Assembly: GCA_964642015.1 (NCBI GenBank)
Contig: CAZXLF010000003.1
Coordinates: 228,204-292,203, forward strand
DNA length: 64,000 bases
Origin: an uncultured Planctomycetia bacterium
GTDB taxonomy: Bacteria > Omnitrophota > Gorgyraeia > 2-02-FULL-51-18
Reading direction: 5' to 3'
Every line of letters starts with the position of its first letter. The first letter of the stretch is position 1. A model generated the notes under the pieces. The model was not told the origin of the DNA. It ran no database searches and saw nothing but the letters and a program-made list of their open reading frames with translations. Made by a program: the position numbers and the translations under genes. Shown here one piece after another: positions 29,914-57,520 of the stretch.

Positions 29914-29915
29914 GA

Positions 29916-45306: not shown

Positions 45307-46388
45307 TTGCCTTCCTTAAAAAATCTCGAAAAGTCGCCGTTTGCGCGCTCCAAGTCGTCTAAATGCCCGATATCAAGCCAGTATTCCCGGATCGGGAACG
45401 CCGCGACACCCATTTTTTTACGGATAAGTTTTTCGATCAAATACGGCATATCCAGCGCCACGCCTTTGGAAATCCCCCGCAAGGCTTCGGGGTTCAAGAT
45501 ATAGATTCCGGCGTTCACAAAAAATCTCTGCACCGGTTTCTCATCGATCGCATCAATATGATGGTCATTTATCTTGACGACGCCATAAGGCACTTGAAAA
45601 TCATATTCACGGACACACATCGTCGCTGCACAATCATTTTCATGATGAAAAGCAAGCAGTTGATTCCAATTGATCTTGGTCAGCAGATCTCCGTTCATCA
45701 CGATCAGCGGTAACGCCGGTTTTTTCGGCAACAATGAAAGAGCTCCGGCAGTGCCCAACTGTTCGGTTTCCTTCAAATATTGGATCTCGGCTCCCCAACG
45801 TGAGCCGTTGCCAAAATATTCTCTGACCATTTCATTTTTATAATTAACGGACATAAAGAATTTTTTGAAACCGTATTCTACGAAATTTTCCAAAATGGTT
45901 TCCAGGATCGGTTTGCTTCCGACATGAAGAAGCGGTTTCGGGCGCTCATCCGTCAAGGGGCGCAGACGCGATCCAAGTCCTCCGGCCATCAAGAGAACCC
46001 AATTGTCTTTTATTCCGGGATCAATCAATTTATCCAGCACTTCCATCCCTACCACACGCCCAACCTCATCCACCAACGGAACCTGATGAACACCTTCTTG
46101 CTTCATGATGGCTAAAATATTTTCCCGGCTCTTATGGATAGGCGCAACGACTGGTTTTGCTGCCATGATGCGATTCACCGGTTCGTTTAAAGCGATCCCC
46201 TTTAAAATACCGCGCCGCACATCTCCGTCAGTCACCGTCCCTAATAAGCGGCGGTTTTTGTCTACCACCAAAGCGATCTGCAAATGACTGACATCTATTT
46301 TTCGGATCGCCTCCGAAATGGCGGCTCCTGATGCAACCAACGTCTTTTCCCAGGGCTTCATTTGTTTCTTCTCCGCAAAAGTTGTCAT
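45303..46388 (-). CDS. CBS-pair + sugar-phosphate nucleotidyltransferase (PtmE-like)
   Basis: Two CBS motifs, then WVLLMAGGLGSRLRPLTDERPKPLLHV (the NTP-transferase G-x-G-T/S-R motif). Confidence 0.8.
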   Translation of the reverse strand: MTTFAEKKQMKPWEKTLVASGAAISEAIRKIDVSHLQIALVVDKNRRLLGTVTDGDVRRGILKGIALNEPVNRIMAAKPVVAPIHKSRENILAIMKQEGVHQVPLVDEVGRVVGMEVLDKLIDPGIKDNWVLLMAGGLGSRLRPLTDERPKPLLHVGSKPILETILENFVEYGFKKFFMSVNYKNEMVREYFGNGSRWGAEIQYLKETEQLGTAGALSLLPKKPALPLIVMNGDLLTKINWNQLLAFHHENDCAATMCVREYDFQVPYGVVKINDHHIDAIDEKPVQRFFVNAGIYILNPEALRGISKGVALDMPYLIEKLIRKKMGVAAFPIREYWLDIGHLDDLERANGDFSRFFKEGK

Positions 46389-46395
46389 CTTTAAA

Positions 46396-47595
46396 TTATA
46401 TTGTCATTCGTTTCTGGACCAACTTTTTATCCAAAGGGATTTTGGACAAAATCCTAGCTATCTTTTTGCCGGCATCTCCGATGCCGTACGGATTCCTGCA
46501 GTCCTTGCATTTTTTTCTGAACTTTTCATCGAACAAACTGCGGTGCACGGCCTTTAAGATCGTCTGAGTTTTGTATCCGGTATCCAAAACATTGTTTGCG
46601 CGAAGACGGCCCTTTTGACGCGAACCGATATTGACTGCGGGGCAACCAAGCGCCGGAGTTTCTTTGATGCCGCTTGAAGAATTTCCCACACACACCCCCC
46701 GCCCTCTTCCGTACGCGCCTTGGTAAAGAAGTCCGTGGTAGTTATATCTGCCGAGACTCTTATGGATCTGTATACCAATCGCCTGCAGTTTCCGATGCCA
46801 GCGACTGATCACATCAATAATGCGTTTTCCACCAGCGTCATTATTCGGATAAGTTACAAATACCTGACAACCTTCCTTCGCTAAAATTTCCATCGCAGCA
46901 AGCGAAGGCATGATCTGCCGCTCTGCGGCTTTATATTCGGTCGCGACCGAATGTTGCGTAAAAACAACGAACGGTTTGCTGAAGTCCAAACCATAACGCT
47001 TTATCAGTTCATCGCGAGAAGCAAAATTTTTTGCCTTGATCAAATCAATGGCCGGAAAACCGACATTAAAAACCCGCCACGCCTCTTCGCCCATCGCACG
47101 AATGCGGCCAGCCGCTTCCTCATTCGTTGTAAAATGAAGGTGTGCTAGCTTCGTCATTGCATGCCGGACCGAATCATCGAGCGCACCGCCTTCCGTGATA
47201 TCGCCTCCTTCGATATGAGCTGTCGGTATGCCCATTTGGGTCCCTGCGATCACGGCCGCAAAACCTTCGAACCGGTCCGCATAGACCACTAGAATATCGG
47301 GCTTAAGTTCGCTGAGTGCTTTGCTTAGATTCAGGATGCCTGAACCGATAGCCTGCGCTGTAGAAAAAAGTGTATCTTGTTCCATATCTATCTTGACTTC
47401 ACGATAGACTTTAAAACCATCTTTGGCGATCTCTTGGACGGTTTTACCGAAATCTTCGTTCAGATGCGCACCCGAAACAAGAAGAAAATGCTTTAACTGA
47501 GGGTGCGTGCTGATCGCCTTGATGATCGGGTACTGCAGACCGTATTCGGCTCTGTTGCCGGTAAAAATAGCTATCTTTCTCGTAAAAACCTCCGG
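46396..47595 (-). CDS. neuC: UDP-N-acetylglucosamine 2-epimerase (hydrolysing), NeuC/LegG-like; canonical start codon missing
   Basis: The ORF track begins at Met 47385. The 68 in-frame codons upstream encode the conserved NeuC N-terminus (R)KIAIFTGNRAEYGLQYPIIKAI... and run without any ATG/GTG/TTG back to the neuB stop. GGAGG-N5-ACG sits where an ATG is expected. Confidence 0.7.
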   Translation of the reverse strand, partial: PEVFTRKIAIFTGNRAEYGLQYPIIKAISTHPQLKHFLLVSGAHLNEDFGKTVQEIAKDGFKVYREVKIDMEQDTLFSTAQAIGSGILNLSKALSELKPDILVVYADRFEGFAAVIAGTQMGIPTAHIEGGDITEGGALDDSVRHAMTKLAHLHFTTNEEAAGRIRAMGEEAWRVFNVGFPAIDLIKAKNFASRDELIKRYGLDFSKPFVVFTQHSVATEYKAAERQIMPSLAAMEILAKEGCQVFVTYPNNDAGGKRIIDVISRWHRKLQAIGIQIHKSLGRYNYHGLLYQGAYGRGRGVCVGNSSSGIKETPALGCPAVNIGSRQKGRLRANNVLDTGYKTQTILKAVHRSLFDEKFRKKCKDCRNPYGIGDAGKKIARILSKIPLDKKLVQKRMTI

Positions 47596-48633
47596 TCAAA
47601 ATCTAGCAATGTCTTCCGGCGCTATTGCTACATTCTCAGCCAAATTTCTCATCGCTTTTTTATGAAATACCTTTTTCAAATCTTTCGCCAGGATCTTTCC
47701 TGTGCCTGGGCGCTTCACCCAAACATTCTGTTGCGTGAAAAATTCCCCCTTTCGCACAGGCCGGATCGTTACTACGCTCGCGTAAGCAAAATCGATCACC
47801 GGTCTTTCTTCCGGAAGAATCGTTTTTTGACCTCCTCGCGCCTGCCATATCGCACGCGCGCCACAAACAAGCTCCTTTAATTCAGCGGGCTCAATAGAAA
47901 TAGGAATGTCGGGTCCGGGCCATTTTCTTGTCACCGTAAAATGCTTCTCCAAAACCGAAGCACCCAAAGCGACTGCGCCCAAACAGGTATAGATCCCTAT
48001 CGAATGATCGCTTAATCCCACCGGCAAACCAAAATGTTTCATCAATTCTTGAATAGCGCCCAATCTGACTTTTTCATAAGGCGTCGGATACATCGACGTA
48101 CAATGCATCAGCATCAATGGACAACCATGTGCTTGTATGGTCTTGGCAGCTTGGGCGATGGAATCAATATCATTCATGCCTGTCGATAAAATAATCGGTT
48201 TGCCCATGCGTGCCACATGATCTAATAAAGGATAATTATTGCACTCACCTGAGCCTATTTTGAAACCGGGCACGTTCATTGAATTCAAACGGTCAGCCGC
48301 TTCTCTTGAGAATGGTGTACTCAAATAGATGATCTTTTTTTTTCGACAATAAGCCTGAACGTCTTTTTCTTCTTTTTCTGTCAATTCACACCGTTTAATA
48401 ATATCCCAGAGACGTTCTTTGGAGATTTTTCCGGGCTTCATATCGGTAGGGATCATTTCCTTATCAGTAATATGGCACTGAAACTTAACGCAATCCGCTC
48501 CACCTTCCACGGCCGCATCCACCATTTGTATGGCTTTCCTGAAGCTCCCCTCATGATTGATACCCACTTCCATGATCACGAATGGCGGTTCATTCGGCCC
48601 AATCTTTCTTCCGGCAAGCGTAAAATTTTTCAT
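47596..48633 (-). CDS. neuB: N-acylneuraminate-9-phosphate/nonulosonate synthase (NeuB/LegI-like) with C-terminal SAF domain
   Basis: IMEVGINHEGSFRKAIQMVDAAVEGGADCVKFQ and the KFQ...SDHS NeuB fold. Confidence 0.88.
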   Translation of the reverse strand: MKNFTLAGRKIGPNEPPFVIMEVGINHEGSFRKAIQMVDAAVEGGADCVKFQCHITDKEMIPTDMKPGKISKERLWDIIKRCELTEKEEKDVQAYCRKKKIIYLSTPFSREAADRLNSMNVPGFKIGSGECNNYPLLDHVARMGKPIILSTGMNDIDSIAQAAKTIQAHGCPLMLMHCTSMYPTPYEKVRLGAIQELMKHFGLPVGLSDHSIGIYTCLGAVALGASVLEKHFTVTRKWPGPDIPISIEPAELKELVCGARAIWQARGGQKTILPEERPVIDFAYASVVTIRPVRKGEFFTQQNVWVKRPGTGKILAKDLKKVFHKKAMRNLAENVAIAPEDIARF

Positions 48634-48646
48634 TATCTCCTCCTAA

Positions 48647-49657
48647 TTAAATTCCATAGAGACCCGATTTGTATCTTGAGAGATTCTCTTTTTTGGTGAA
48701 CCATCTTATGGTTTTCTCCAAACCGCTTTCAAAACCTTCTTGTCCACCATGAACCGGGTACCAATTCATAAGTTTTTTTGCTTTGGAATGGTCGGCAAAC
48801 AACCGCTCCACTTCGCTGTCTTTCGGTCTGAACCTTTTTACATCAGTTTTAATTTTTATCCTCTTTTTCATCAACCGGGCAATTAACTGAGCCGTCTGGC
48901 CAATAGAGATCTCGAATTGACTTCCCAGATTGATTACTTCCCCTACAGCATTATCAGATGTTGCGGCACAAATAAAACCCTGAACCGTATCTTCAACAAA
49001 AGTAAAGTCTCGCGTGGGATGAAGCGATCCTAAACGGATCTCTTTTTCACCAGAAGCGATCTGAGTGATCACCGATGGGATCACAGCGCGCGCCGACTGA
49101 CGAGGTCCGTAAGTATTGAAAGGCCGCAAGATCGCCACAGGCGTCTTGAACGATTTAAAAAAAGAAATCGCGATCTGGTCTGCACCGAGCTTGGTCGCAG
49201 CATAAGGTGATTGAGCCTGCAACGAATGCTCTTCGGTAATAGGAACAAATTTCGCCGTGCCATAAACTTCACTGGTGGATGTATGCACGATCTTTTTGAT
49301 CCCCAGCTCGCGGGCTGCTTGTAAAATATTCAGGGTACCTTTGACATTAGTGTCTACGTAACTGTCCGGCGAATGATAGGAGTAAGGAATACCGATAAGT
49401 GCGGCCAAATGCAGAACCACCTCACACCCCTTCATAGCGGATTTTACTCCATGAGGATCACGGATATCGCCCATACACACATCCAAGGATTTCTTGATAT
49501 TGGTCGGCGAGTCATCAAGCCAGCCCCATGAATTGAAAGAATTGTATAAGACGAACGCACGGACATCGTGACCTCGTTTTACAAGTGTTTCGGTCAAATG
49601 AGATCCGATAAATCCATCAGCGCCCGTAACCAATATTTTTTTATTTTTCAGATTCAT
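48647..49657 (-). CDS. NAD-dependent sugar epimerase/dehydratase (extended SDR)
   Basis: KILVTGADGFIGSHL and the YAATK catalytic motif. Confidence 0.75.
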   Translation of the reverse strand: MNLKNKKILVTGADGFIGSHLTETLVKRGHDVRAFVLYNSFNSWGWLDDSPTNIKKSLDVCMGDIRDPHGVKSAMKGCEVVLHLAALIGIPYSYHSPDSYVDTNVKGTLNILQAARELGIKKIVHTSTSEVYGTAKFVPITEEHSLQAQSPYAATKLGADQIAISFFKSFKTPVAILRPFNTYGPRQSARAVIPSVITQIASGEKEIRLGSLHPTRDFTFVEDTVQGFICAATSDNAVGEVINLGSQFEISIGQTAQLIARLMKKRIKIKTDVKRFRPKDSEVERLFADHSKAKKLMNWYPVHGGQEGFESGLEKTIRWFTKKENLSRYKSGLYGI

Positions 49658-49668
49658 TGCCTTTTCCT

Positions 49669-50886
49669 TTATGCAGCTTTCTTGGCGACCATTCTTTCGC
49701 GAATCATATCCGCAAACGCAAAACTCCCTGTAAAGGCCGGTGAAACGGCATTCAAAACGTGCGTGGAATCGGGGCCATCCTCAACAACAAAATCCATCAC
49801 CAGTTTTTTTGCTATCTTGTCCACCAGCTGAGCGCGAAGCCCGACCCATCCTTCGCCTGACAGATCAGCCGGCTGGATCGATGGCATTAATAATCGTACG
49901 TGCGTTAAAAATCCTTTAAAGGTATATTTATCAAATTCCTCTTTGACTAATTTCCTGAAATTCGAACCATTTTTCAACCAAAGCATCATTAAATGAAACG
50001 TTATTTCGGGCGTTGCCGAAAGATCTAATCCGTCAACAGCGCCGTAGTTTTCCCTGCCAAATGCCGGGATCGCCGTCGGACCCGCAAACACTTCGCCGTA
50101 TATATTTTTTGTCACATGCACGCCCAAAAAAGGCATTGCAGGATCGGGTGCCGGATATATGGAGCCGTTCACGCGCTCAGCGATCCCGGCGCTCAATTTT
50201 CTGAAAATACCTTTAAAAGGCAGAATACAATATCTTTCGCCTATCCCCATCGCATGAGCGATCCTGTCAGCATGAAGTCCGGCCGTGTTCACGAGATGTT
50301 TATACGACATGGTTCCTTGCGTTGTGCTTAAAATGCGGTCTTTCACATTTACTTTCTTCACTTCGTTTGATTTCTCCAGCCTAACGCCCATTTTCGATAT
50401 ATCTGCTTCCAAGGATGCTAAAATTTTTTTTGCGTCTATCACCGCCGTATCGGGTGAATAAAGCGCTATTTCGCAAGTTTTGGCGTAAGGCTCGATCTCA
50501 AGCAACCGTTGTTCATCTATTTTCTCGACGCGCACTCCGTTCTTTACTGCCTTATCGTATAGACGGTGTATCTCGGGAACAAATTCTCTAGATGGCGCAA
50601 CGATCACTTTGCCTGTTTTTTTACAGGGAACGCCTTTTTCAGCGGCATAAGCCTGCATTCTCCGCGAGCCCTCGACACAACTGTGAGCTTTTAAGGAATC
50701 CGGGCTGTAATAAATGCCGGCATGAAGAACGCCGCTATTTTTGCCGCTTGCGTGTTTTCCAAGCTCCGACTCTTTTTCGAGGATGCAGATGCTTTTATTC
50801 TTATCCTGCGCAAGACGTCTAGCGATCGTCAGACCGATAACGCCGGCACCGATAATGACCACATCGTATTGCCGCACGCTACTCAT
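49669..50886 (-). CDS. FAD-dependent oxidoreductase (LhgO/L-2-hydroxyglutarate oxidase or DAO-like)
   Basis: YDVVIIGAGVIGLTIARRL dinucleotide-binding motif. Size is 405 aa. Confidence 0.65.
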   Translation of the reverse strand: MSSVRQYDVVIIGAGVIGLTIARRLAQDKNKSICILEKESELGKHASGKNSGVLHAGIYYSPDSLKAHSCVEGSRRMQAYAAEKGVPCKKTGKVIVAPSREFVPEIHRLYDKAVKNGVRVEKIDEQRLLEIEPYAKTCEIALYSPDTAVIDAKKILASLEADISKMGVRLEKSNEVKKVNVKDRILSTTQGTMSYKHLVNTAGLHADRIAHAMGIGERYCILPFKGIFRKLSAGIAERVNGSIYPAPDPAMPFLGVHVTKNIYGEVFAGPTAIPAFGRENYGAVDGLDLSATPEITFHLMMLWLKNGSNFRKLVKEEFDKYTFKGFLTHVRLLMPSIQPADLSGEGWVGLRAQLVDKIAKKLVMDFVVEDGPDSTHVLNAVSPAFTGSFAFADMIRERMVAKKAA

Positions 50887-51118
50887 CTATATCTTTATGC
50901 GCCCAATTCCTGGCCTTATTGTAAGCCTTGCCCACACGATCCTCGATCTTGGGAGACAGAATACGCAAAAGTTCTTTTCCCATGATACGGTACTGCTTGC
51001 CAACTTTGGCGGTGCGTATCAAACCTTTCTTGATCATCCGCGTCACCGTGCTTGAGCTGACCTTCAACAGCGCCTGCGTCTCCTCATGTGTATAAACTTC
51101 GTTCTCTTTTATTTCCAT
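50879..51118 (-). CDS. Small excisionase/MerR-type HTH DNA-binding protein
   Basis: 79 aa. HEETQALLKVSSSTVTRMIKKGLIRTAKVGKQYRI matches the HTH_17 pattern. Confidence 0.6.
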   Translation of the reverse strand: MEIKENEVYTHEETQALLKVSSSTVTRMIKKGLIRTAKVGKQYRIMGKELLRILSPKIEDRVGKAYNKARNWAHKDIDE

Positions 51119-51150
51119 AGGCTCCTTACCCTTTCCTTCATCAAATGAAT

Positions 51151-52158
51151 TTATTTACGTAAAAAACTTTCCTGCTCCTGTTGAGAGGCTCTTATTGTCC
51201 ACTCATTCGGCATTGCATTTCTGTCCTTCGGCAAATCGTTCGTATCCAGCCGAGGCAACAACAGCGGACGATCTCTATTCAGATCAGCGATCTCAATTCG
51301 AGAAGTCAACGCCACTTTGCAGCCGTGACGGTTGATAATCGAACACAAAGAATCGTTATAGCCTCCGTACGGATAACACATGATCCAGCTCTTGACATCG
51401 CAACCCAATGCACTCAAAAATTTCACAGAATTTTTAACCTCCTGCTCTTGGAGTTCAGGAGCATCCAAATCAAGCCAGCGATGATCATATCCATGGCTTC
51501 CAATATACATCCCATGCCCCTGCATATGACGTATCTGATCCATATCCATATAAAGCTCTTTGGAAAAAGAGCCTTCGTCTTTAGTGACATATTTTTCGAA
51601 TAAAAGTTTGACGATCTTCTTCCTGATCTTTTCGGGCCTGGCTTTTTGCAAAAACCTTTTGATAAAAATAATTTCTCTGGGGTCGTAACGATTTTCGGTA
51701 GCTAGTTCGTCAAAATATTCCTGGTTGCTTTTTAATTTGTATTCTCCCCTGAATTGATCCAACAATAAAACAATCTCGCGCATGATCTCGAGCCTGTCCT
51801 GAACCGACGCCAAAATAAAATGGCTTTTGTTGACGTCAAGCACCTGATGCTCCAAGATCGCCTTAGCGGGCAGAAAAAAGCATCCGGAAATATTCCTCTT
51901 TTTAAGAATAGGGAAAACATTCACGAAGTGATCTATATAACCATCGTCAAAGGTCAACAAAACAGCTCTAGGCGGTAATTCACTGTGGCCATCCGCACAG
52001 GCCAACAGATCATCCGCCGTAATGAATTGATAATGCCTTCGCAGATATTCGATCTGCTCTGTAAATTGATGCGTTGTAAGCCCGCGGATCTCCGGATACC
52101 GCGAATTCTGAAGGTCCCTCACGTAGTGATACATCATGATGGTTAATCTTTTACTCAT
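51151..52158 (-). CDS. Polysaccharide deacetylase (NodB/CE4 family)
   Basis: LLTFDDGYIDH (TFDDG motif) and YIGSHGYDHRWL. Confidence 0.8.
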   Translation of the reverse strand: MSKRLTIMMYHYVRDLQNSRYPEIRGLTTHQFTEQIEYLRRHYQFITADDLLACADGHSELPPRAVLLTFDDGYIDHFVNVFPILKKRNISGCFFLPAKAILEHQVLDVNKSHFILASVQDRLEIMREIVLLLDQFRGEYKLKSNQEYFDELATENRYDPREIIFIKRFLQKARPEKIRKKIVKLLFEKYVTKDEGSFSKELYMDMDQIRHMQGHGMYIGSHGYDHRWLDLDAPELQEQEVKNSVKFLSALGCDVKSWIMCYPYGGYNDSLCSIINRHGCKVALTSRIEIADLNRDRPLLLPRLDTNDLPKDRNAMPNEWTIRASQQEQESFLRK

Positions 52159-54061
52159 GCGACACCGTGATTTGGTTGATCATTTCAAGAGAATTATTTT
52201 TAACGAATGTTTTTGACTTTGCTTTAGCCTTATCCAAAGAAAGAGACCAATATCCCGTTGAACCTCCCCCGAAAATAATAAAGCCAAATTCTTTGTAAAG
52301 GTTTGAGAATTTATGATTTGACGGGGTTGAAATAAATTCTCCTTGAATCATTTTTACATCCCGCTTGCTTGCTAAGCCGATGATATAATTCATCATGAAA
52401 TGCTCGAGGGTCCTGGCAAACACCCGGCAACTCATCAACCAGCTATCGATCCGTAAGATATCTTTTTCCTGAACAAGAATCACCGACGCAACTAATCCGT
52501 GATCAGTAAATTTATCCGAGAGCCTGCAAACCAACACTATGATGTTTTCATCTCTCATCAGTTCATGGATCTTTGCTTCAGAATAACGGCGAGTCGTTAG
52601 ATTAAACTGATTGGTCTTAAGCTCCATCTGCGCCAAACGCGGCAGATCGCCCGGTGTTGCCTGATAAATTTCAGCTGTCATTTCCAGCTCTTTTAAGTAG
52701 CTCTCGATATCTACAGCCGAACTTTGCATTTCTTTAGCTTTGTTTATGGCAATATAGGATTGAGCTCTGTTCTCGTCTTCTTTTGTCAATTCAAATCTGT
52801 CGAACAAATGCAAACCGTCCAAATAACGGATAAAATCTGCAGGGTCTTCTGGCAATTCCACGACAGTCACGGCCGGCAAACTTTGGCGTACAAGATCACA
52901 TTCCATAGGATTATCGTCCACAAAAACAAGCGTCGACAGATCAATGTTGAGGTCTTTCGCGATCTTCTTAAGATTTCCCGGTTTCTCTTCCCAGTTACAA
53001 TAAAAAGCCGCAAAATCGTCCCGCTTTAGCGGCATCTCGGGATGCTTTTCAAATACTTGTTGGGCAACAACATTTTCATTTTTACTACAAACAGCTAAGA
53101 TCACTCCTCTTTTTTTCAGTTCCAAAATATATTTACAAAACGCGGCATAAGCTTCCCCCTCGGCAGAAATGTTGCCCAACTGAATACCGTCGATGCCATC
53201 ATCGCCAATCACTCCGCCCCACAAAGTATTGTCCAGATCTAAAACTAAACACTTTTTTGCGCGACCCCAAAGCGCTCTGAATACCCCCAAAAAAAGATTC
53301 GAGTACTCCTTGATGAATTTCGGATTAAACCCAAACTTCGCATGATAATAAAACCGTTCATCGTGCCAATTGTCATAACCGACTCTTTTGGCAAGACCAT
53401 CGAGGTCCAGCACGTGAACATATAACGGCTTCTGCTCGCTGAGCACTCGGTTGAACGAAATTAAATAATTATTTTGAGACCATTCAAGACTAGTTTCAGC
53501 TATTCCTATAAAATTATAGTTCATGCCAGCAATGTTATGGATCAAAATGGGACATTTAAATTCATCGTGAAGTTTTCGGCATAATTCCGTAAATTCACTT
53601 ATTTGATGATCAATCATCGGCCCAACCGATGTTGCAACGTTAGGAAATTCTTTTATGTTCTGAGGACCAATCGCGAATAAAATAAGTTCGGGCTGAAATT
53701 GATGTATTCCGCTTAGAGGGTCTAAAACCTCCTGTTGAAAAGTATCAAAAGGTGCTTCGTAGATTTCAGCTAGTAAATTTTCTTTACACAACGCCATACG
53801 CACCGCATTGGCAACTACACTCGTTGTATAACCACCTAAGATAGCAATCTTTAATCTTGGGAGATCTTTCGCGTTGGATTCTTTTATAAAAGCTTCGTCG
53901 ATGAATTTTTTAAAAAATTCAAACTCGTGAAGTTTTTGATTTTTGAAATTCAAATGCCTGCAGATAAGCTCCCATGCTTCACGCTGTTGTTTTTTTTCAC
54001 AAAGCTCTTTGGCCTTATTGAGAATGTCAAAGCTGTTTAACACTTCAGAAATTTGAGACAT
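52151..54061 (-). CDS. FkbH-like protein (HAD-IIIC phosphatase-type glyceryl-ACP loading enzyme)
   Basis: VLDLDNTLWGGVIGDDG (FkbH/HAD-IIIC motif I), AVCSKNEN and LVFVDDNP. Size of 636 aa matches full-length FkbH. Confidence 0.8.
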   Translation of the reverse strand: MSQISEVLNSFDILNKAKELCEKKQQREAWELICRHLNFKNQKLHEFEFFKKFIDEAFIKESNAKDLPRLKIAILGGYTTSVVANAVRMALCKENLLAEIYEAPFDTFQQEVLDPLSGIHQFQPELILFAIGPQNIKEFPNVATSVGPMIDHQISEFTELCRKLHDEFKCPILIHNIAGMNYNFIGIAETSLEWSQNNYLISFNRVLSEQKPLYVHVLDLDGLAKRVGYDNWHDERFYYHAKFGFNPKFIKEYSNLFLGVFRALWGRAKKCLVLDLDNTLWGGVIGDDGIDGIQLGNISAEGEAYAAFCKYILELKKRGVILAVCSKNENVVAQQVFEKHPEMPLKRDDFAAFYCNWEEKPGNLKKIAKDLNIDLSTLVFVDDNPMECDLVRQSLPAVTVVELPEDPADFIRYLDGLHLFDRFELTKEDENRAQSYIAINKAKEMQSSAVDIESYLKELEMTAEIYQATPGDLPRLAQMELKTNQFNLTTRRYSEAKIHELMRDENIIVLVCRLSDKFTDHGLVASVILVQEKDILRIDSWLMSCRVFARTLEHFMMNYIIGLASKRDVKMIQGEFISTPSNHKFSNLYKEFGFIIFGGGSTGYWSLSLDKAKAKSKTFVKNNSLEMINQITVSHE

Positions 54062-54064
54062 AAA

Positions 54065-54973
54065 CTATCTATCCTTTTTTACCAAATATCCGGCAATCGT
54101 CGGACGCAGATGCTCAGGTTTTTCAGGATACTGAACCTCTATTTGAGCATCCCGGATCTTCCAGCCGGCCTTTTCAAGCTGGACTTCAACCTCTTTAGGA
54201 GAACGGTAATGATAAATATGATCCGTGTGGCTCGCGTTCACCGCCGCCGTGATATAACCCCATCCTTTCGGCCGCGCAGCGCGGTAGAGACCGTTTACAA
54301 AACTCTGCGGATCTTCAAGATGTTCGAGCACTTCCTGGCTGATGACCAGATCCGCGAGTTCGCTGATGGGGTTTGCGATAATATTTTGATTACGGATCGA
54401 ATACCGATCGCCGTAACCGTGTGCACGAACCGCTCGAAATGTAAAATTCAATGCGTAATCACTAATGTCAAACCCGATCCCCTTGGCTTGCGGTATCAAT
54501 TCGAGCGTCTTTTGTGAATACATTCCGCAGCCAACGCCTACTTCGTAAAATAATTTCACGTCAGCTGCGATTTTCGGCAGAAGATCAGTGAGATAACGCC
54601 TCAGCATGCGCTGATGATGCGGCCAAATATAGTGAGAAAGATATTGGCCCGGCAAATAACGGCGCTCCATATAGTCGGATGAATGATAACACTCTTTAAT
54701 CATCTGCCCATAATCACTGTTCTGGTATCTGCCATGCTTTTCATAATAAACCTGCGCCCGAAGCGCGTCGACACAGAACTCCGCATAACCATCAATCGCT
54801 TCATCCCATTTTGGCGAAGGATTTTCGCCGAATACACGCGCAATATTTTGGGAGATCTCTTCTTCCCACACAGGACCAAATTCTTTTTCGCTTTTGGTCC
54901 AAAGAGTCGCGAACTGCGGGTATCTTTTTTCAATGATCTCGCGCATCTGAGTAAAAGCCGATTTAGTTAACAT
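54065..54973 (-). CDS. Class I SAM-dependent methyltransferase
   Basis: YEVGVGCGMYS motif I and VLEHLEDP. Confidence 0.65.
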   Translation of the reverse strand: MLTKSAFTQMREIIEKRYPQFATLWTKSEKEFGPVWEEEISQNIARVFGENPSPKWDEAIDGYAEFCVDALRAQVYYEKHGRYQNSDYGQMIKECYHSSDYMERRYLPGQYLSHYIWPHHQRMLRRYLTDLLPKIAADVKLFYEVGVGCGMYSQKTLELIPQAKGIGFDISDYALNFTFRAVRAHGYGDRYSIRNQNIIANPISELADLVISQEVLEHLEDPQSFVNGLYRAARPKGWGYITAAVNASHTDHIYHYRSPKEVEVQLEKAGWKIRDAQIEVQYPEKPEHLRPTIAGYLVKKDR

Positions 54974-54984
54974 GGATCTCCGTT

Positions 54985-55425
54985 TTAATTCTTAACGATG
55001 CTCTTTGCTTTAGCAGTTGCGATCAATTGTCCATCACTATCTGTCACGGTAACATCGATCGTGATCTGTCCTGTGCTTTCTGAAATATGCCCAACGATCC
55101 CCTGCACTTTTATCTTTTTAGGAGGAACCAAAGGTTTTCGGAATCCCAAATCGATGCTTTGCAGGATCCCGTTCGACCCCGGTAGCCGATTTCCGATGAG
55201 TCTCGAAATTAAAGCGCCTATATAAAGTCCGTGTGACACTTTTCCTCCAAAACCTTTTTTCTTGGCAAAATCCGCATCCATATGGATTGGAGAATAATCT
55301 CCTGAAAGTTTTGCGAAAGCATCGATATCCTCCGGCTTTACGGATACTTCGATACTTTCTGATCGCCCAACGGCAAGATCAGACAGGCTGTAATTGTTTA
55401 TCTGCATCAATCCACCATTCTCCAT
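54985..55425 (-). CDS. MaoC-like (R)-specific dehydratase, hot-dog fold
   Basis: DIDAFAKLSGDYSPIHMDADFAKKKGFGGKVSHGLY. Start placed at the internal Met (MENGG...); the ORF track extends to 55488. Confidence 0.7.
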   Translation of the reverse strand: MENGGLMQINNYSLSDLAVGRSESIEVSVKPEDIDAFAKLSGDYSPIHMDADFAKKKGFGGKVSHGLYIGALISRLIGNRLPGSNGILQSIDLGFRKPLVPPKKIKVQGIVGHISESTGQITIDVTVTDSDGQLIATAKAKSIVKN

Positions 55426-56293
55426 AACCCGCCAAACGATCCTTCGCCGGTGATAAGATCCCTTCACCCTCCATTTTCCATCCTTCAAGAGGAATCACCC
55501 CTGCTTTAAATTGCGGCGGTCTTTTCAAGAATGCGTAAACATTCTCAGCTAAAAGGCGATATCCGATAGAGAGCTGGTCTTTTAAATCGGAGGCATACAT
55601 CACCGCGTCACCCAGAACAGCCTGCCGCAGCAGCCCTTCTCTGCGCAGTGTTTCTGTATAAAGCCCATAGTCTGGTTCGACGGCGAATGAACGGTAAGCT
55701 ACGTTCAGAACAAAAATTTTGTCCAATCTTTTTCCATCCCTGTAAACAGAGGCATCCAAAATTTTATTGTAATAATACGGGACCCCATAGGTGGTTTCCA
55801 AATAATGAGCACCCGTGACCAAGTGCCCGCTATTCGGTTCAAAACCTAAACTCACGGCAACACCGCCGTTTTCAAATAAATTTCCATAAGCGCTGCCCAC
55901 ACCAAAACCACTCGTGCTTTGTGCATTGCAAATAACAGCGGCCTTTTCTCCAAAAGCCGTCAAAGAGAAAACGGGGTGAAAACTACGCACTGCACCAGGT
56001 TGTTTTCGTAAAAACTCATTTAAAATCCCTGAGGGCGTCGGCGTTTCTTCATGAATGTAATCCAAACCAAAACGCCCGATCTGCGGCGTATGCGTCGGCA
56101 TGACTAGCGTGCCAGACGGACCGATCACTTCAAAAATGGCCTGCTGATAAATACGGCAAAATTCATCTGCAGAATGCGCATCTGCTAGACGGCCTACCAC
56201 CGCGATGCGTGCGGTAAAAAATACGGTATCTCCCGTTTTAACCCCGAGCTGTTTAAACACACGGATGATGTCGCTCTTCGAATAGCTTTTCAC
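55379..56293 (-). CDS. AAC(3)-family (Antibiotic_NAT fold) N-acyltransferase, paralog A
   Basis: VFKQLGVKTGDTVFFTARIAVVGRL...IGPSGTLVMPTHT and RSFHPVFSLTAFG match the AAC(3) RSxHP motif region. Confidence 0.7.
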   Translation of the reverse strand: MKSYSKSDIIRVFKQLGVKTGDTVFFTARIAVVGRLADAHSADEFCRIYQQAIFEVIGPSGTLVMPTHTPQIGRFGLDYIHEETPTPSGILNEFLRKQPGAVRSFHPVFSLTAFGEKAAVICNAQSTSGFGVGSAYGNLFENGGVAVSLGFEPNSGHLVTGAHYLETTYGVPYYYNKILDASVYRDGKRLDKIFVLNVAYRSFAVEPDYGLYTETLRREGLLRQAVLGDAVMYASDLKDQLSIGYRLLAENVYAFLKRPPQFKAGVIPLEGWKMEGEGILSPAKDRLAGYGEWWIDADKQLQPV

Positions 56294-56294
56294 A

Positions 56295-57173
56295 TTAGTC
56301 CCATTCGTCCGCTAGTACAAGACCGGCCCAGTTTTTCGGAGCATCCGATACAGCTTCTCTGCCTTCAAACGGAATACGGCCACGCACAAATTGCGGTGAA
56401 CATTTTAAAAATGAATACACATCTTCGGATAACAACTCATAACCTATTTTTTTCTGGTCATGGAGATCGCTCGCGAACAGCACCGCGTCACCGATTTTTA
56501 CGGCACGCAGCATACCACGCGAATTGAGCGTCTCTATAAAACGGGAATAATCAAGTTGGATCTCAAATTCCCTGTAACCCACGTTCAAAACAAAAACTTT
56601 TTGAGTTTTTTCGCCGTCGCGATAAACTTCAGATGTCACGACCTTATTATAATAATAAGGAACGCCATAAGTGGCTTCGATATAATGAGCGCCTTTGACA
56701 ATATTGCCGTCAAGATATTCAAATCCTAAGCTTGCGCTTTTGGCACCATGACGAAATAAATACCCAAAAGCGCTGTTCATTCCGAACGCGCTCGTATCAA
56801 CATTTCCGCAAATCGCCTCAGCTTTGGCACCCACAGCGGTCAAAGAAAAAACCGGATGAAAACTTCTAACAGCATTTTCTTTTTTTCTGATGAATTCATA
56901 GAATTCACCATAAGGCGTTGGTGTAGATTCATGAATATAAGGTGTCCCGAAACATCCCACCTGTTGGGTATATGTAGGTACCACTAAGGTTCCGTTATTT
57001 CCAAGGATCTCGAAAATAGCATCAAAAATTTTTTGACAAAACGATTGGCTCGAATTGGCACCTTCCAAGCGGCCTAGCGCAGATAACCGCGCCGATAGAA
57101 AAAGCGTGTCCCCGTTTTTTATTCCCGCTCTTTTGAATGCTTCTGTGAGGTCAGACGAAGAATACGAAGTCAT
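56295..57173 (-). CDS. AAC(3)-family (Antibiotic_NAT fold) N-acyltransferase, paralog B
   Basis: AFKRAGIKNGDTLFLSARLSALGRL...LGNNGTLVVPTYT and RSFHPVFSLTAVG. Adjacent to paralog A and similar to it. Confidence 0.7.
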   Translation of the reverse strand: MTSYSSSDLTEAFKRAGIKNGDTLFLSARLSALGRLEGANSSQSFCQKIFDAIFEILGNNGTLVVPTYTQQVGCFGTPYIHESTPTPYGEFYEFIRKKENAVRSFHPVFSLTAVGAKAEAICGNVDTSAFGMNSAFGYLFRHGAKSASLGFEYLDGNIVKGAHYIEATYGVPYYYNKVVTSEVYRDGEKTQKVFVLNVGYREFEIQLDYSRFIETLNSRGMLRAVKIGDAVLFASDLHDQKKIGYELLSEDVYSFLKCSPQFVRGRIPFEGREAVSDAPKNWAGLVLADEWD

Positions 57174-57403
57174 TGAATATTTTTTTTATGGAGCAACTGC
57201 AGGAGATCGCCTACGCAAGTAAGGGAGCTGATTTCTTTGGTCGTAAAATTGACCTTGAAATATTCCTCAAGTGCGACGATCAGATTGATATGCGCAAAAG
57301 AATCCCAACCCGCAACGTGAGAGGCGTTGGTTTGTTCGGTGACAACAAGCTTGGGGTCGTTGAAAACTTCCCTGAAAACTCCTGTTACACGGTCTAAAAG
57401 CAT
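57170..57403 (-). CDS. Acyl carrier protein (standalone)
   Basis: 77 aa. The GWDSFAHINL phosphopantetheine-attachment motif (DS) lies in a four-helix-length protein. Confidence 0.8.
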   Translation of the reverse strand: MLLDRVTGVFREVFNDPKLVVTEQTNASHVAGWDSFAHINLIVALEEYFKVNFTTKEISSLTCVGDLLQLLHKKNIQ

Positions 57404-57453
57404 TTAACCCTTTCTTTAGCATATAGTTAAGTAGGCGTAAGTTAACGAGATAT

Positions 57454-57482
57454 ATATTATTCTATAACTCATATTATGTCAA
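57454..57482 (-). promoter_or_regulatory. Sigma70-type promoter: TTGACA-N17-TAATAT driving the ACP/AAC(3)/MaoC/MT/FkbH operon
   Basis: The minus strand reads TTGACATAATATGAGTTATAGAATAATAT. The -35 is an exact consensus hexamer, the spacer is 17 nt and the -10 matches 4/6. It lies about 45 nt upstream of the ACP start, in the AT-rich gap 57404-57511. Confidence 0.5.
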
Positions 57483-57488
57483 TAGTTA

Positions 57489-57520
57489 TCATTAGATATC
57501 ATAAATGACCATTAGATATC
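57489..57520 (-). repeat. Direct repeat (C/T)CATTAGATATC x2, 20 bp centre-to-centre, each containing the palindrome GATATC
   Basis: Plus strand has tcATTAGATATCataaatgaccATTAGATATCc. It is located just upstream of the -35 element. Confidence 0.5.

What the first reader, a model, noticed from the sequence alone, without database searches (positions are those of the whole stretch)
51151..57403. Candidate ACP-dependent N-acyl remodelling pathway for a nonulosonic/amino sugar (deacetylase + FkbH + ACP + two AAC(3)-like transferases + MaoC + MT)
Seven co-directional, tightly packed genes sit immediately upstream of the NeuB/NeuC/NeuA-like module. They are:
- a NodB deacetylase (TFDDG motif);
- a full-length FkbH-like enzyme (LDLDNTLWGG HAD-IIIC motif);
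- a SAM methyltransferase;
- a MaoC hot-dog dehydratase;
- two tandem AAC(3)/Antibiotic_NAT-fold acyltransferases (RSFHPVFSLTA);
- a standalone ACP (GWDSFAH).

FkbH enzymes load a glyceryl unit from 1,3-bisphosphoglycerate onto a dedicated ACP. AAC(3)-fold enzymes N-acylate amino sugars. NodB enzymes remove N-acetyl groups.

Together these suggest a de-N-acetylation and re-N-acylation pathway that installs a glyceroyl group on the amino sugar. The group could be O-methylated (MT) or dehydrated (MaoC). Glyceroyl and di-O-methylglyceroyl nonulosonic acids are known chemically, but I do not recognise this gene combination as a described pathway. In particular, Antibiotic_NAT enzymes presumably using acyl-ACP, duplicated in tandem, looks novel.
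Basis: partly seen in the sequence, partly recalled or inferred. Interest (0 to 1): 0.85.

Follow-up and report, generated by a model that had tools for sequence, protein, structure and literature searches.

The report
Carrier-protein N-acylation cassette for legionaminic-type sugar
A conserved but uncharacterised gene cassette probably builds a three-carbon acyl group from a glycolysis intermediate on a small carrier protein and attaches it to an amino group of a sialic-acid-like surface sugar, using enzymes whose fold is otherwise known from aminoglycoside resistance.

Summary
All seven gene calls are correct and lie at the stated coordinates. The genes form one tightly packed minus-strand operon directly upstream of a legionaminic-acid module (LegB, NeuB, NeuC, PtmE, NeuA).

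About 70 related loci show which genes belong together.
- **Core unit.** The conserved unit is five genes in fixed order: ACP, AAC(3)-like, MaoC, methyltransferase, FkbH. It occurs in at least six bacterial lineages, next to nonulosonic-acid genes wherever the flanks are long enough, and often directly after a DegT aminotransferase.
- **Accessory genes.** The NodB deacetylase occurs only in the window's closest relatives. It belongs to a very large family that is also found in unrelated contexts. The second AAC(3) copy is a lineage-specific duplication.

Fusion proteins found elsewhere support acyl transfer from a carrier protein by this branch of the AAC(3) fold:
- adenylation–carrier–AAC(3);
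- AAC(3)–phosphopantetheinyl transferase;
- MaoC–methyltransferase;
- MaoC–reductase.

Because MaoC and the methyltransferase are obligatory partners, the acyl group is probably a dehydrated and methylated glycerate derivative, not plain glyceroyl. Its identity is inferred, not shown.

No paper in the searched library describes this pathway. The gene for N-glyceroyl pseudaminic acid in Tannerella was reported as "elusive" in 2018.

Verdict: a real feature and a new variant of known kinds of pathway. Interest 0.65.

The parts
57170..57403 (-). Stand-alone acyl carrier protein (77 aa). The phosphopantetheine attachment serine is Ser35 in the motif GWDSFAH.
   Evidence: PF00550 hit. The WDS motif is invariant in 27 homologues. 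The protein aligns to the carrier domains of the fusion proteins P0218, P0231 and P0217. Its stop codon overlaps the AAC3a start by 4 nt.
56295..57173 (-). AAC(3)-fold (Antibiotic_NAT) acyltransferase, paralogue a (292 aa). Proposed to be an acyl-ACP-dependent N-acyltransferase.
   Evidence: PF02522, 84 bits. The score is far below the AAC(3) resistance equivalog cut-off, 55 against 270. The AF2 model has pLDDT 90.6. Foldseek gives TM about 0.7 to BA2930, AAC(3)-Xa and FrbF. His163 aligns with His183 of BA2930, which was mutated in the deposited structures.
55379..56293 (-). AAC(3)-fold acyltransferase, paralogue b (304 aa), 56% identical to paralogue a.
   Evidence: The tree shows the duplication arose in the common ancestor of the window and the L018 lineage, and both copies keep all family-invariant residues.
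54985..55410 (-). MaoC / (R)-specific hot-dog dehydratase (141 aa; the ORF extends to 55488).
   Evidence: PF01575. The catalytic motif sGD....H is conserved in 25 homologues. The nearest solved structures are human HTD2 and PhaJ. The domain is fused to the methyltransferase in P0084 and P0129, and to an SDR in L065.
54065..54973 (-). Class I SAM methyltransferase (302 aa) with a helical N-terminal domain and an invariant cluster of His and Asp residues.
52151..54061 (-). Full-length FkbH-like glyceryl transferase/phosphatase (636 aa), the proposed loader of glyceryl onto the ACP.
   Evidence: TIGR01686, 296 bits against a cut-off of 147, plus FkbH_N. DLDNTLWGG and Cys545 (in MSCRVF) are invariant in 16 homologues. 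The N-terminal and HAD domains match PDB 3SLR.
51151..52158 (-). Cytoplasmic NodB/CE4 deacetylase (335 aa). An accessory member, present only in the window's closest relatives.
   Evidence: PF01522. The TFDDG and HGYDH motifs are present, and I see no signal-peptide-like N-terminus in that translation. The gene is present in L018/L030, L019 and L020 only. The wider family is huge and also occurs in unrelated contexts.
50879..51118 (-). Small HTH_17 (excisionase/MamR-like) DNA-binding protein, a possible local regulator.
   Evidence: Conserved in L019 (68% identity) and L020 (87% identity).
49669..50886 (-). FAD oxidoreductase of the L-2-hydroxyglutarate oxidase type (405 aa), specific to the window. 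Its role is unknown; it may oxidise a 2-hydroxyacyl group.
   Evidence: NF008726, 331 bits against a cut-off of 299. No match to it was found in any related locus.
48647..49657 (-). LegB, the NAD-dependent 4,6-dehydratase of the legionaminic acid pathway.
   Evidence: TIGR04180, 517 bits against a cut-off of 475.
47596..48633 (-). NeuB-family nonulosonate synthase (LegI-like).
   Evidence: PF03102. TIGR03569 gives 371 bits, below the NeuB equivalog cut-off.
46396..47595 (-). NeuC/LegG-like hydrolysing 2-epimerase. The first 70 codons have no canonical start codon.
45303..46388 (-). PtmE-like sugar-1-phosphate nucleotidyltransferase with CBS domains.
44575..45306 (-). CMP-nonulosonate synthetase (LegF/NeuA-like).
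43256..44578 (-). Class III aminotransferase. It recurs with AAC3-like genes in other loci and is fused to NeuA in L065.
42442..43290 (-). PtmA-like short-chain dehydrogenase.
57454..57482 (-). Promoter-like site (TTGACA, 17-nt spacer, TAATAT) in the only sizeable gap upstream of the ACP gene.
   Evidence: This is weak evidence: the scan as a whole did not exceed chance.

Best explanation
The region encodes a portable donor-plus-transferase cassette that puts an unusual N-acyl group on a legionaminic-acid-type nonulosonic sugar destined for a surface polysaccharide.

**Step 1 (inferred from family membership).** FkbH takes 1,3-bisphosphoglycerate. It dephosphorylates it through its HAD domain (DLDNT motif), holds glycerate as a thioester on Cys545, and passes it to Ser35-phosphopantetheine of the stand-alone ACP. 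The product is glyceryl-S-ACP.

**Step 2 (inferred from obligatory co-occurrence and fusions).** The MaoC dehydratase removes the 3-hydroxyl, giving an enolpyruvoyl/pyruvoyl thioester, and the methyltransferase methylates it.
- The most likely product is a 2-methoxyacryloyl-type group.
- 2-oxobutanoyl (by C-methylation) and O-methylglyceroyl are the alternatives.
- A sister architecture has MaoC fused to a reductase and no methyltransferase. That version would give lactyl-ACP.

**Step 3 (inferred from synteny and domain fusions).** The AAC(3)-fold enzymes use the acyl-S-ACP, not acetyl-CoA, and transfer the acyl group to a sugar amine.
- The most likely acceptor is the 4-amino group made on the nucleotide-linked 4-amino-4,6-dideoxy-HexNAc, which becomes N7 of the nonulosonate. 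They would thus replace the missing LegH acetyltransferase.
- In this lineage the transferase is duplicated. The second copy, possibly together with the accessory NodB deacetylase, may modify a second amine (N5).

**Step 4.** LegG, LegI and LegF then complete and activate the sugar.
For: **Family and motif evidence**
- All family calls exceed their curated cut-offs.
- Catalytic motifs are invariant across homologues.

**Conserved synteny**
- The order ACP-AAC3-MaoC-MT-FkbH recurs in MAGs of Planctomycetota, Bdellovibrionota, Alpha-, Beta- and Gammaproteobacteria and Bacteroidota, and in many metagenome contigs.
- Among non-redundant loci with AAC3 at 36% identity or more and enough flank: ACP 23/25, MaoC 17/20, MT 15/16, FkbH 13/14.
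- A DegT aminotransferase sits directly upstream of the ACP in many loci. NeuB, NeuA or PtmF genes lie within 10 kb wherever the flanks are long.
- No hexapeptide or GNAT N-acetyltransferase is present in the window or in the Pfam-annotated loci L004, L021 and L022.

**Fusion proteins**
- P0217 and P0231 are AMP-binding + carrier (WDSLGH) + AAC3. P0218 is carrier + AAC3.
- P0285 is AAC3 + DUF2172 + 4'-phosphopantetheinyl transferase.
- P0212 is AAC3 + an MT302-like methyltransferase.
- The window's ACP aligns to those carrier domains.
- MaoC::MT fusions are P0084 and P0129. A MaoC::SDR fusion sits next to an FkbH-like gene and AAC3 in L065.

**Portability of the donor module**
- ACP-MaoC-MT with a probable FkbH also occurs with other candidate transferases when AAC3 is absent, in L070 and L071.

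**Structure**
- The AAC3a model has the AAC(3) fold and keeps the His equivalent to BA2930 H183.

**Published chemistry**
- FkbH chemistry is established for polyketide pathways (PMC7489565).
Against: - No biochemical data exist for any member, and the organism is an uncultured MAG with no glycan data.
- Every characterised Antibiotic_NAT enzyme uses acetyl-CoA, to my knowledge.
- Relatives of AAC3 occur without the cassette, where they presumably use a CoA donor: L012/L040 at 37% identity and the Pelagibacter-type clade.
- The window lacks a DegT (LegC) gene, so the acceptor amine is not defined. It may instead be made by the class III aminotransferase.
- To my knowledge a 2-methoxyacryloyl or 2-oxoacyl amide has never been reported on a nonulosonic acid.
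- The stage of transfer is unknown: nucleotide-hexose, free nonulosonate or CMP-nonulosonate.
Confidence: 0.62

Rival explanations
1. NodB removes an N-acetyl group from the amino sugar. The AAC(3)-like enzymes then re-acylate it with glyceroyl or O-methylglyceroyl from glyceryl-ACP. MaoC and the methyltransferase are optional tailoring enzymes.
For: - NodB is translationally coupled to FkbH in the window, L018/L030, L019 and L020.
- From the translation I see no signal-peptide-like N-terminus, so it should be cytoplasmic.
- N-glyceroyl and 2,3-di-O-methylglyceroyl nonulosonates exist in T. forsythia and C. jejuni.
- The window has two transferases and no LegH, so both amines might need acylation.
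Against: - NodB is absent from 10 of 12 related cassettes with enough flank.
- Its family has more than 6500 members at 53-58% identity across unrelated phyla. In Anoxybacter it lies in a context unrelated to nonulosonic acids.
- NodB occurs with a single AAC3 in L019 and L020.
- MaoC is as conserved as FkbH and is fused to the methyltransferase. A dehydratase has no role in making glyceroyl or di-O-methylglyceroyl.
Confidence: 0.2
2. The AAC(3)-like proteins are ordinary acetyl-CoA-dependent N-acetyltransferases that stand in for LegH. The ACP-MaoC-MT-FkbH module makes a substituent that other enzymes attach elsewhere, for example an O-acyl group added by the upstream SGNH/AlgX-like proteins.
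For: - Known members of the fold use acetyl-CoA, and the family nearest in structure binds AcCoA.
- AAC3 relatives occur without the module in L012/L040 and L013-L014.
- The module occurs without AAC3 in L070 and L071.
- Three SGNH paralogues lie directly upstream in the window and in L018.
Against: - The ACP is immediately upstream of AAC3, often overlapping it, in 23 of 25 loci.
- Covalent carrier-AAC3 and AAC3-phosphopantetheinyl transferase fusions exist.
- The SGNH genes are not conserved with the cassette outside the closest relatives.
Confidence: 0.13
3. The cassette makes a small secondary metabolite, such as a tetronate or a methoxymalonate-derived compound, unrelated to the glycan. 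It merely sits inside the polysaccharide locus.
For: FkbH with a stand-alone ACP is the hallmark of methoxymalonyl-ACP and tetronate pathways.
Against: - The window and the related loci contain no ketosynthase, no FabH-like gene and no FkbK/FkbI-type dehydrogenases.
- The cassette is embedded in nonulosonic-acid gene sets in every long locus.
Confidence: 0.03

Closest known systems
FkbH/OzmB-type glyceryl-ACP formation in polyketide pathways (methoxymalonyl-ACP, tetronates)
   Same: A full-length FkbH (N-terminal domain, HAD-IIIC domain and C-terminal Cys domain) is paired with a dedicated stand-alone ACP. The presumed substrate is 1,3-bisphosphoglycerate.
   Different: There are no FkbK/FkbI dehydrogenases, no FkbG-type O-methyltransferase, and no ketosynthase or FabH. 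Instead there is a MaoC dehydratase and a different class I methyltransferase. The acyl group goes to a sugar amine rather than into a polyketide.
[quoted passage not shown]
   Same: An AAC(3)-like N-acetyltransferase gene (Cj1296/7) and an FkbH-domain gene (cj1302) lie in a nonulosonic-acid locus. By my recollection the locus also holds ACPs and a SAM methyltransferase. The strain makes a glycerate-derived N-acyl nonulosonate. AAC3::DUF2172 fusions (P0274, P0285) link the AAC3 family to the domain that I recall Cj1295 carries; the paper itself calls Cj1295 only an aminopeptidase.
   Different: The window has no DUF2172 protein, no FabH and only one ACP, but it does have a MaoC dehydratase. 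The Campylobacter proteins were not recovered by my searches, so homology was not measured here. [quoted passage not shown]
AAC(3) aminoglycoside 3-N-acetyltransferases and their non-resistance relatives FrbF, YokD and BA2930
   Same: Same fold (TM about 0.7), the same conserved His, and N-acylation of an amine on a sugar-like substrate.
   Different: Identity is only about 20%. Scores are far below every AAC(3) resistance equivalog cut-off. The proposed donor is acyl-ACP rather than acetyl-CoA. The context is a glycan locus, not a resistance gene.
Acyl-ACP-dependent N-acylation of amino sugars: LpxD in lipid A, and the V. cholerae O1 perosamine tetronate pathway (both from my own knowledge)
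   Same: A carrier-protein-bound acyl group is delivered to the amino group of a nucleotide sugar.
   Different: Those transferases have left-handed beta-helix or other folds, and the acyl groups come from fatty-acid or other routes, not from FkbH.
DH-KR-FkbH-ACP loading modules that make lactyl starter units (bryostatin BryA; from my own knowledge, not found in the searched library)
   Same: The same logic: FkbH loads glyceryl, a dehydratase converts it to an enolpyruvoyl/pyruvoyl thioester, and further tailoring follows. The MaoC::SDR architecture in L065 mirrors it.
   Different: Here the proteins are free-standing, the dehydratase is a MaoC type, and in the window a methyltransferase takes the place of the reductase.

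Membership tests
FkbH family (TIGR01686) | Profile score above the curated cut-off over the HAD-IIIC and C-terminal domains | tested here: met
   296 bits against a cut-off of 146.65, residues 268-594. FkbH_N (PF21211) scores 41 bits against 27.
FkbH family (TIGR01686) | HAD motif I, DxDxT (the phosphatase nucleophile) | tested here: met
   LDLDNTLWGG is invariant in 16 homologues.
FkbH family (TIGR01686) | Conserved C-terminal cysteine that carries the glyceryl thioester. The role of this residue is recalled from the OzmB literature. | tested here: met
   Cys545 in W.MSCRVF is invariant. That it is the catalytic Cys is inferred, not tested.
FkbH family (TIGR01686) | [quoted passage not shown] | not testable with these tools
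   Requires an enzyme assay with intact-protein mass spectrometry.
Methoxymalonyl-ACP pathway (FkbG-K) | FkbK- and FkbI-type dehydrogenases and an FkbG-type O-methyltransferase next to FkbH and the ACP | tested here: not met
   No 3-hydroxyacyl-CoA dehydrogenase or acyl-CoA dehydrogenase domains occur in the operon. The methyltransferase hits generic class I models only.
Antibiotic_NAT / AAC(3) fold (PF02522) | Pfam score above the gathering threshold, and the fold itself | tested here: met
   92 and 84 bits against 25. Foldseek probability 1.00 and TM 0.66-0.72 to AAC(3) enzymes, BA2930 and FrbF.
Antibiotic_NAT / AAC(3) fold (PF02522) | Conserved active-site histidine | tested here: met
   His163 is invariant in alignment A1 and aligns with H183 of BA2930, which was mutated in structures 3KZL and 3N0S.
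AAC(3) aminoglycoside-resistance enzymes (NCBIfam NF033082 and subtypes) | Score above the equivalog cut-off | tested here: not met
   Best scores are 69.8 and 55.3 bits against a cut-off of 270. These are not resistance AAC(3) enzymes.
AAC(3) aminoglycoside-resistance enzymes (NCBIfam NF033082 and subtypes) | Acetyl-CoA as the acyl donor | not testable with these tools
Legionaminic acid pathway (LegB, C, H, G, I, F) | LegB 4,6-dehydratase | tested here: met
   TIGR04180, 516.7 bits against a cut-off of 475.
Legionaminic acid pathway (LegB, C, H, G, I, F) | LegG (NeuC-type), LegI (NeuB-type) and LegF (cytidylyltransferase) | tested here: met
   TIGR03568 gives 301 bits against 236. The NeuB family is matched, at 371 bits, below the NeuB equivalog cut-off. 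CTP_transf_3 is matched.
Legionaminic acid pathway (LegB, C, H, G, I, F) | LegC DegT-type aminotransferase and LegH hexapeptide N-acetyltransferase | tested here: not met
   No DegT, Hexapep or GNAT domain occurs in the ORFs of 110 aa or more scanned across the window (about 410-47,000), nor in the main minus-strand ORFs scanned from 44,000 to 64,000. tblastn with DegT and LegH-like queries found nothing in the window.
MaoC / hydratase-2 dehydratases (PF01575) | Pfam score, and the catalytic Asp and His of the hydratase-2 motif | tested here: met
   63.7 bits against 27. The motif LSGDYSPIH is present, with sGD....H conserved in 25 homologues.
NodB / CE4 deacetylases (PF01522) | Pfam score, the Asp-Asp motif (TFDD) and the His-x3-His metal motif | tested here: met
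   76 bits against 23. TFDDG and HGYDH are present and conserved in the three close homologues.
C. jejuni Cj1295-Cj1304-type locus | DUF2172 (Cj1295-type) protein and FabH alongside AAC3-like, ACP, methyltransferase and FkbH | tested here: not met
   No DUF2172 or ketosynthase domain occurs in any window protein scanned. Direct homology to the Campylobacter proteins could not be measured because no Campylobacter sequence was retrievable.

The most novel reading that the evidence does not exclude
A branch of the AAC(3)/Antibiotic_NAT fold consists of carrier-protein-dependent N-acyltransferases. Together with FkbH, a MaoC dehydratase and a dedicated methyltransferase, they install a so far unreported glycerate-derived enol-ether or alpha-keto acyl group (for example 2-methoxyacryloyl) on legionaminic or pseudaminic acids in many uncultured bacteria. 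The same logic, with the tailoring enzymes swapped, would explain the unexplained N-glyceroyl, di-O-methylglyceroyl and possibly N-lactoyl nonulosonates.
Probability: 0.3. Interest if true: 0.8.

Novelty: new variant of a known kind. Interest (0 to 1): 0.65.

Why it matters
Nonulosonic acids on flagella, S-layers, capsules and LPS carry diverse N-acyl groups. These groups shape immune recognition and phage binding.

Beyond acetyl and acetimidoyl, the genes that make them are largely unknown. The gene for N-glyceroyl pseudaminic acid in Tannerella forsythia was described as "elusive" in 2018, and the C. jejuni genes next to Cj1295 remain uncharacterised.

This cassette gives a concrete, testable enzymatic route: FkbH to ACP, then tailoring, then an AAC(3)-fold transferase.

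It would also give a new donor type to a fold known mainly from antibiotic resistance. That is relevant both to the evolutionary origin of AAC(3) resistance enzymes and to the enzymatic synthesis of modified sialic-acid analogues.

Tried and rejected
1. **NodB tracks the second AAC3 copy.** I proposed that the deacetylase frees a second amine for the duplicate. Rejected: L019 and L020 have NodB with a single AAC3.
2. **NodB is a dedicated nonulosonic-acid enzyme.** Weakened: the family has more than 6500 hits. The Anoxybacter homologue, at 58% identity, lies in a context with no nonulosonic-acid genes.
3. **Finding Campylobacter Cj1296/7 among distant AAC3 hits.** P0066 turned out to be an unrelated context. 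P0063 gave a different AAC3+ACP arrangement in a Leg cluster, locus L024. No Campylobacter or Tannerella sequence could be reached with the available collections.
4. **Organism identity.** Exact-sequence look-ups returned no names. The genome is not among the GTDB representatives scanned.
5. **Type of methyltransferase.**
   - PDB sequence search gave only marginal hits.
   - The weak NCBIfam hit to 2-ketoarginine methyltransferase (E = 0.003) was not pursued as evidence.
6. **Promoter and terminator scan.** Overall counts match chance. Only the position of one site, in the gap upstream of the ACP, is noted.
7. **Literature.** No paper in the searched library links FkbH to nonulosonic-acid acylation beyond naming cj1302 an fkbH-domain gene. 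The bryostatin lactate-starter precedent could not be retrieved and is cited from memory.

Full report
**1. Observation**

Each matches its proposed family above the curated threshold:
- NodB: PF01522.
- FkbH: TIGR01686, 296 bits against a cut-off of 147, plus the FkbH_N domain.
- A class I SAM methyltransferase.
- MaoC: PF01575.
- Two Antibiotic_NAT proteins: PF02522, 92 and 84 bits.
- A PP-binding ACP.

The two Antibiotic_NAT proteins are 56% identical paralogues. Gene spacing runs from an 11-nt gap to a 32-nt overlap, so this is one operon.

Three genes separate it from the NeuB/NeuC/NeuA-type genes:
- a small HTH_17 protein;
- an FAD oxidase of the L-2-hydroxyglutarate oxidase type;
- LegB (TIGR04180, 517 bits against 475).

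The LegB match identifies the downstream module as a legionaminic-acid-type pathway.

The whole window from about 15 kb onwards is one large surface-polysaccharide locus. It holds four GT9 heptosyltransferases, many GT2 and GT4 enzymes, a Wzx-type flippase, an initiating sugar transferase and a carbamoyltransferase. Housekeeping genes lie at 1-14 kb.

**2. What belongs together**

I searched the AAC(3)-like protein against three resources:
- the 5.8-billion-protein collection;
- one genome per species;
- metagenome contigs.

I then mapped all window proteins onto the roughly 70 loci recovered.

Every AAC(3)-like gene with 36% identity or more to the window's copy, with a few exceptions, sits in the same ordered cassette: ACP, AAC3, MaoC, methyltransferase, FkbH. 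Among non-redundant loci with enough flank the counts are:

| Partner gene | Loci with it / loci testable |
|---|---|
| ACP | 23 / 25 |
| MaoC | 17 / 20 |
| MT | 15 / 16 |
| FkbH | 13 / 14 |

The main exception is a Lentisphaerae locus (L012/L040).

The cassette occurs in MAGs of:
- Anaerohalosphaeraceae (Planctomycetota);
- Bdellovibrionales;
- Rhodospirillaceae;
- Sulfuritalea;
- Candidatus Berkiella;
- Mariniphaga (Bacteroidota).

In long loci it is embedded in nonulosonic-acid genes (NeuB, CMP-synthetase, a PtmF-like GFO/IDH oxidoreductase). In many loci a DegT aminotransferase ends just before the ACP gene.

NodB is present only in the window and its three closest relatives (L018/L030, L019, L020), which also share the HTH_17 gene.

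The tandem AAC3 pair is found only in the window and L018. A distance tree places that duplication in their common ancestor.

**3. Evidence that the AAC(3)-fold enzyme takes its acyl group from the carrier protein**

The first line of evidence is the invariant ACP-AAC3 adjacency described above.

The second is a profile search of 1.84 billion representative proteins. It found 527 clusters at E ≤ 1e-30, and several are multidomain:
- P0217 and P0231: AMP-binding adenylation domain, then a carrier domain with a WDSLGH or WDSLIH motif, then AAC3.
- P0218: carrier plus AAC3.
- P0285: AAC3 plus DUF4910/DUF2172 plus a 4'-phosphopantetheinyl transferase domain.
- P0212, P0213 and P0276: AAC3 plus a methyltransferase.

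The window's ACP aligns to those internal carrier domains with the serine in register (E = 3e-8 to P0218). A more distant AAC3 in a Leg cluster (L024) also has a neighbouring PP-binding protein.

The AlphaFold model of AAC3a is confident (pLDDT 90.6) and has the AAC(3) fold, with TM about 0.7 to BA2930, AAC(3)-Xa and FrbF. It keeps the histidine that aligns with H183 of BA2930.

The proteins score far below every resistance-type AAC(3) equivalog cut-off. They belong to the fold family, not to the resistance enzymes.

**4. The donor module and the likely acyl group**

Across the cassette homologues the following are invariant:
- the FkbH HAD motif DLDNTLWGG;
- a C-terminal cysteine in FkbH (Cys545, MSCRVF);
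- the WDS serine of the ACP;
- the MaoC Asp and His.

The methyltransferase family has 235 hits at 49-79% identity. It has an invariant SAM motif and a cluster of invariant His and Asp residues.

MaoC and this methyltransferase are fused in P0084 and P0129. The set ACP-MaoC-MT with a probable FkbH also occurs without AAC3: next to a GNAT-like gene in L070 and next to radical-SAM genes in L071. So the donor-making module is portable and the transferase varies.

A second architecture appears in marine metagenomes (L056, L062-L065). Its gene order is an ACP-like 79-aa protein, a MaoC::short-chain-reductase fusion, an FkbH-like protein and a distant AAC3. It has no methyltransferase.

The simplest chemical reading is this:
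- FkbH loads glyceryl onto the ACP. This chemistry is established in polyketide pathways (PMC7489565).
- MaoC eliminates the 3-hydroxyl, giving an enolpyruvoyl/pyruvoyl thioester.
- That intermediate is either reduced, giving lactyl in architecture B, or methylated, as in the window's architecture.

O-methylation would give 2-methoxyacryloyl. C-methylation would give 2-oxobutanoyl.

**5. The acceptor**

The window and the Pfam-annotated loci L004, L021 and L022 contain no LegH/PseH-type acetyltransferase. DegT is often the gene just before the ACP.

The AAC3 enzyme is therefore best placed at the LegH step. It would acylate the 4-amino group of the nucleotide-linked 4-amino-4,6-dideoxy-HexNAc, which becomes N7 of the nonulosonate. 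N7 is also the position of the glyceroyl group in T. forsythia Pse5Am7Gra.

Several related loci also carry the HisH/HisF-like genes, which from my own knowledge are the set used to form N-acetimidoyl groups. This is the same 5Am/7-acyl pattern.

The window is unusual in lacking any DegT gene. Instead it has a class III aminotransferase. That enzyme recurs with AAC3-like genes elsewhere and is fused to the CMP-synthetase in L065. So the acceptor amine in this organism is not settled.

The second AAC3 copy and NodB could serve a second amine. That remains a hypothesis, for these reasons:
- NodB occurs with single-copy AAC3.
- It is absent from most cassettes.
- It belongs to a very large, highly conserved family that also occurs in unrelated contexts.

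**6. Comparison with what is known**

| Known system | How this cassette compares |
|---|---|
| FkbH/ACP chemistry | A member of the FkbH family by every testable criterion. |
| Methoxymalonyl-ACP or tetronate pathways | Not one of these: no FkbK/FkbI, no FkbG-type methyltransferase, no ketosynthase. |
| AAC(3) resistance enzymes | Shares the fold, but fails the resistance-family cut-offs. |
| Acyl-ACP-dependent N-acylation of amino sugars (LpxD; V. cholerae O1 tetronate, from my own knowledge) | The same kind of reaction, but carried out with other folds. |
| C. jejuni Cj1295-Cj1304 locus | The nearest biological parallel. It has an AAC(3)-like Cj1296/7 and the FkbH-domain gene cj1302, and by my recollection ACPs and a methyltransferase. 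The strain makes 2,3-di-O-methylglyceroyl nonulosonates. |

The Campylobacter genes are uncharacterised and their locus composition differs: DUF2172, FabH, and no MaoC.

For T. forsythia, papers state that the gene for the glyceroyl group "remains elusive" and that the mechanism "remains a major challenge".

I found no paper describing the present cassette.

**7. Verdict**

- Supported: an ACP-dependent N-acylation route using AAC(3)-fold transferases.
- Not supported as stated: the deacetylate-and-reacylate scheme, and plain or simply O-methylated glyceroyl as the product.

The feature is a new variant of known kinds of system. It is widespread but rare in uncultured bacteria and entirely uncharacterised biochemically.

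It makes an open question in bacterial glycobiology directly testable: how unusual N-acyl groups get onto nonulosonic acids.

Interest is 0.65. Confidence in the overall mechanism is about 0.6. Confidence in any specific acyl structure is about 0.3 or less.

Noticed in passing
window 47386-47598 (minus strand): The NeuC/LegG-like gene has no canonical start codon. The 70 codons between NeuB's TGA stop and the first ATG (47385) are in frame with both genes. They encode a normal NeuC N-terminus (TRKIAIFTGNRAEYGLQYPIIKAI...). The cause is either a rare start codon (ATA or ATT after a GGAGG) or stop-codon read-through giving a NeuB-NeuC fusion. An identical sequence occurs on an independent assembly (L002).
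   Followed up: partly
window 57512-63565 (minus strand): Directly upstream of the ACP gene lie three paralogous SGNH/AlgX-like proteins (340, 332 and 344 aa), a SAM methyltransferase (333 aa) and a 627-aa polytopic membrane protein of the LIC_10190 family. An SGNH gene and the membrane protein also precede the ACP in the closest relative (L018/L025). They may form an O-acylation or export system for the same glycan.
   Followed up: partly
window 49669-51118 (minus strand): A 79-aa HTH_17/MamR-like protein and an FAD oxidase that passes the L-2-hydroxyglutarate oxidase equivalog cut-off (331 bits against 299) sit inside the operon, between NodB and LegB. The HTH gene is conserved in L019 and L020. 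The oxidase is unique to the window and could oxidise a 2-hydroxyacyl group.
   Followed up: partly
L065 1120-9731; also L056 and L062-L064: Marine metagenome contigs carry a second architecture. Its gene order is: ACP-like 79-aa protein, MaoC::SDR fusion (358 aa), FkbH-like protein (541 aa), distant AAC3 (284 aa), aldo-keto reductase, a 608-aa unknown protein, and a fused CMP-synthetase::class III aminotransferase (678 aa). It suggests a lactyl-type N-acyl variant and a functional link between the class III aminotransferase and CMP-sugar formation.
   Followed up: partly
proteins P0217, P0231, P0218, P0285, P0274, P0212: Multidomain relatives of the AAC3-like protein exist: adenylation-carrier-AAC3; AAC3-DUF4910/DUF2172-HTH-phosphopantetheinyl transferase; AAC3-DUF2172; and AAC3-methyltransferase. 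From my recollection, DUF2172 is the domain carried by C. jejuni Cj1295, the neighbour of Cj1296/7.
   Followed up: partly
window 51151-52158; L072 10001-10981: The NodB-like protein belongs to an unusually well conserved family. It has more than 6500 hits, at 53-58% identity in the best 120 listed, from Firmicutes, Geobacterales, Nanoarchaeota and Patescibacteria. In Anoxybacter fermentans it sits beside a methyltransferase in a variable region with GmrSD-like and transposase genes.
   Followed up: partly
window 43256-44578 and 42442-43290: The window has a class III (GSA-aminomutase-like) aminotransferase and a PtmA-like SDR, but no DegT (LegC), no LegH and no PtmF anywhere in 64 kb. The amination step of this Leg-type pathway is therefore unaccounted for.
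   Followed up: partly
window 29497-31733, 40541-42427, 18648-20006: The same polysaccharide locus holds a carbamoyltransferase with an SxtJ-like small protein, and two large proteins (628 and 452 aa) that match no Pfam family.
   Followed up: no
window 7541-9656: Two tandem, divergent galactose-1-phosphate uridylyltransferase-like (HIT-type, DUF4921/DUF4931) genes lie between the housekeeping genes and the glycan locus.
   Followed up: no
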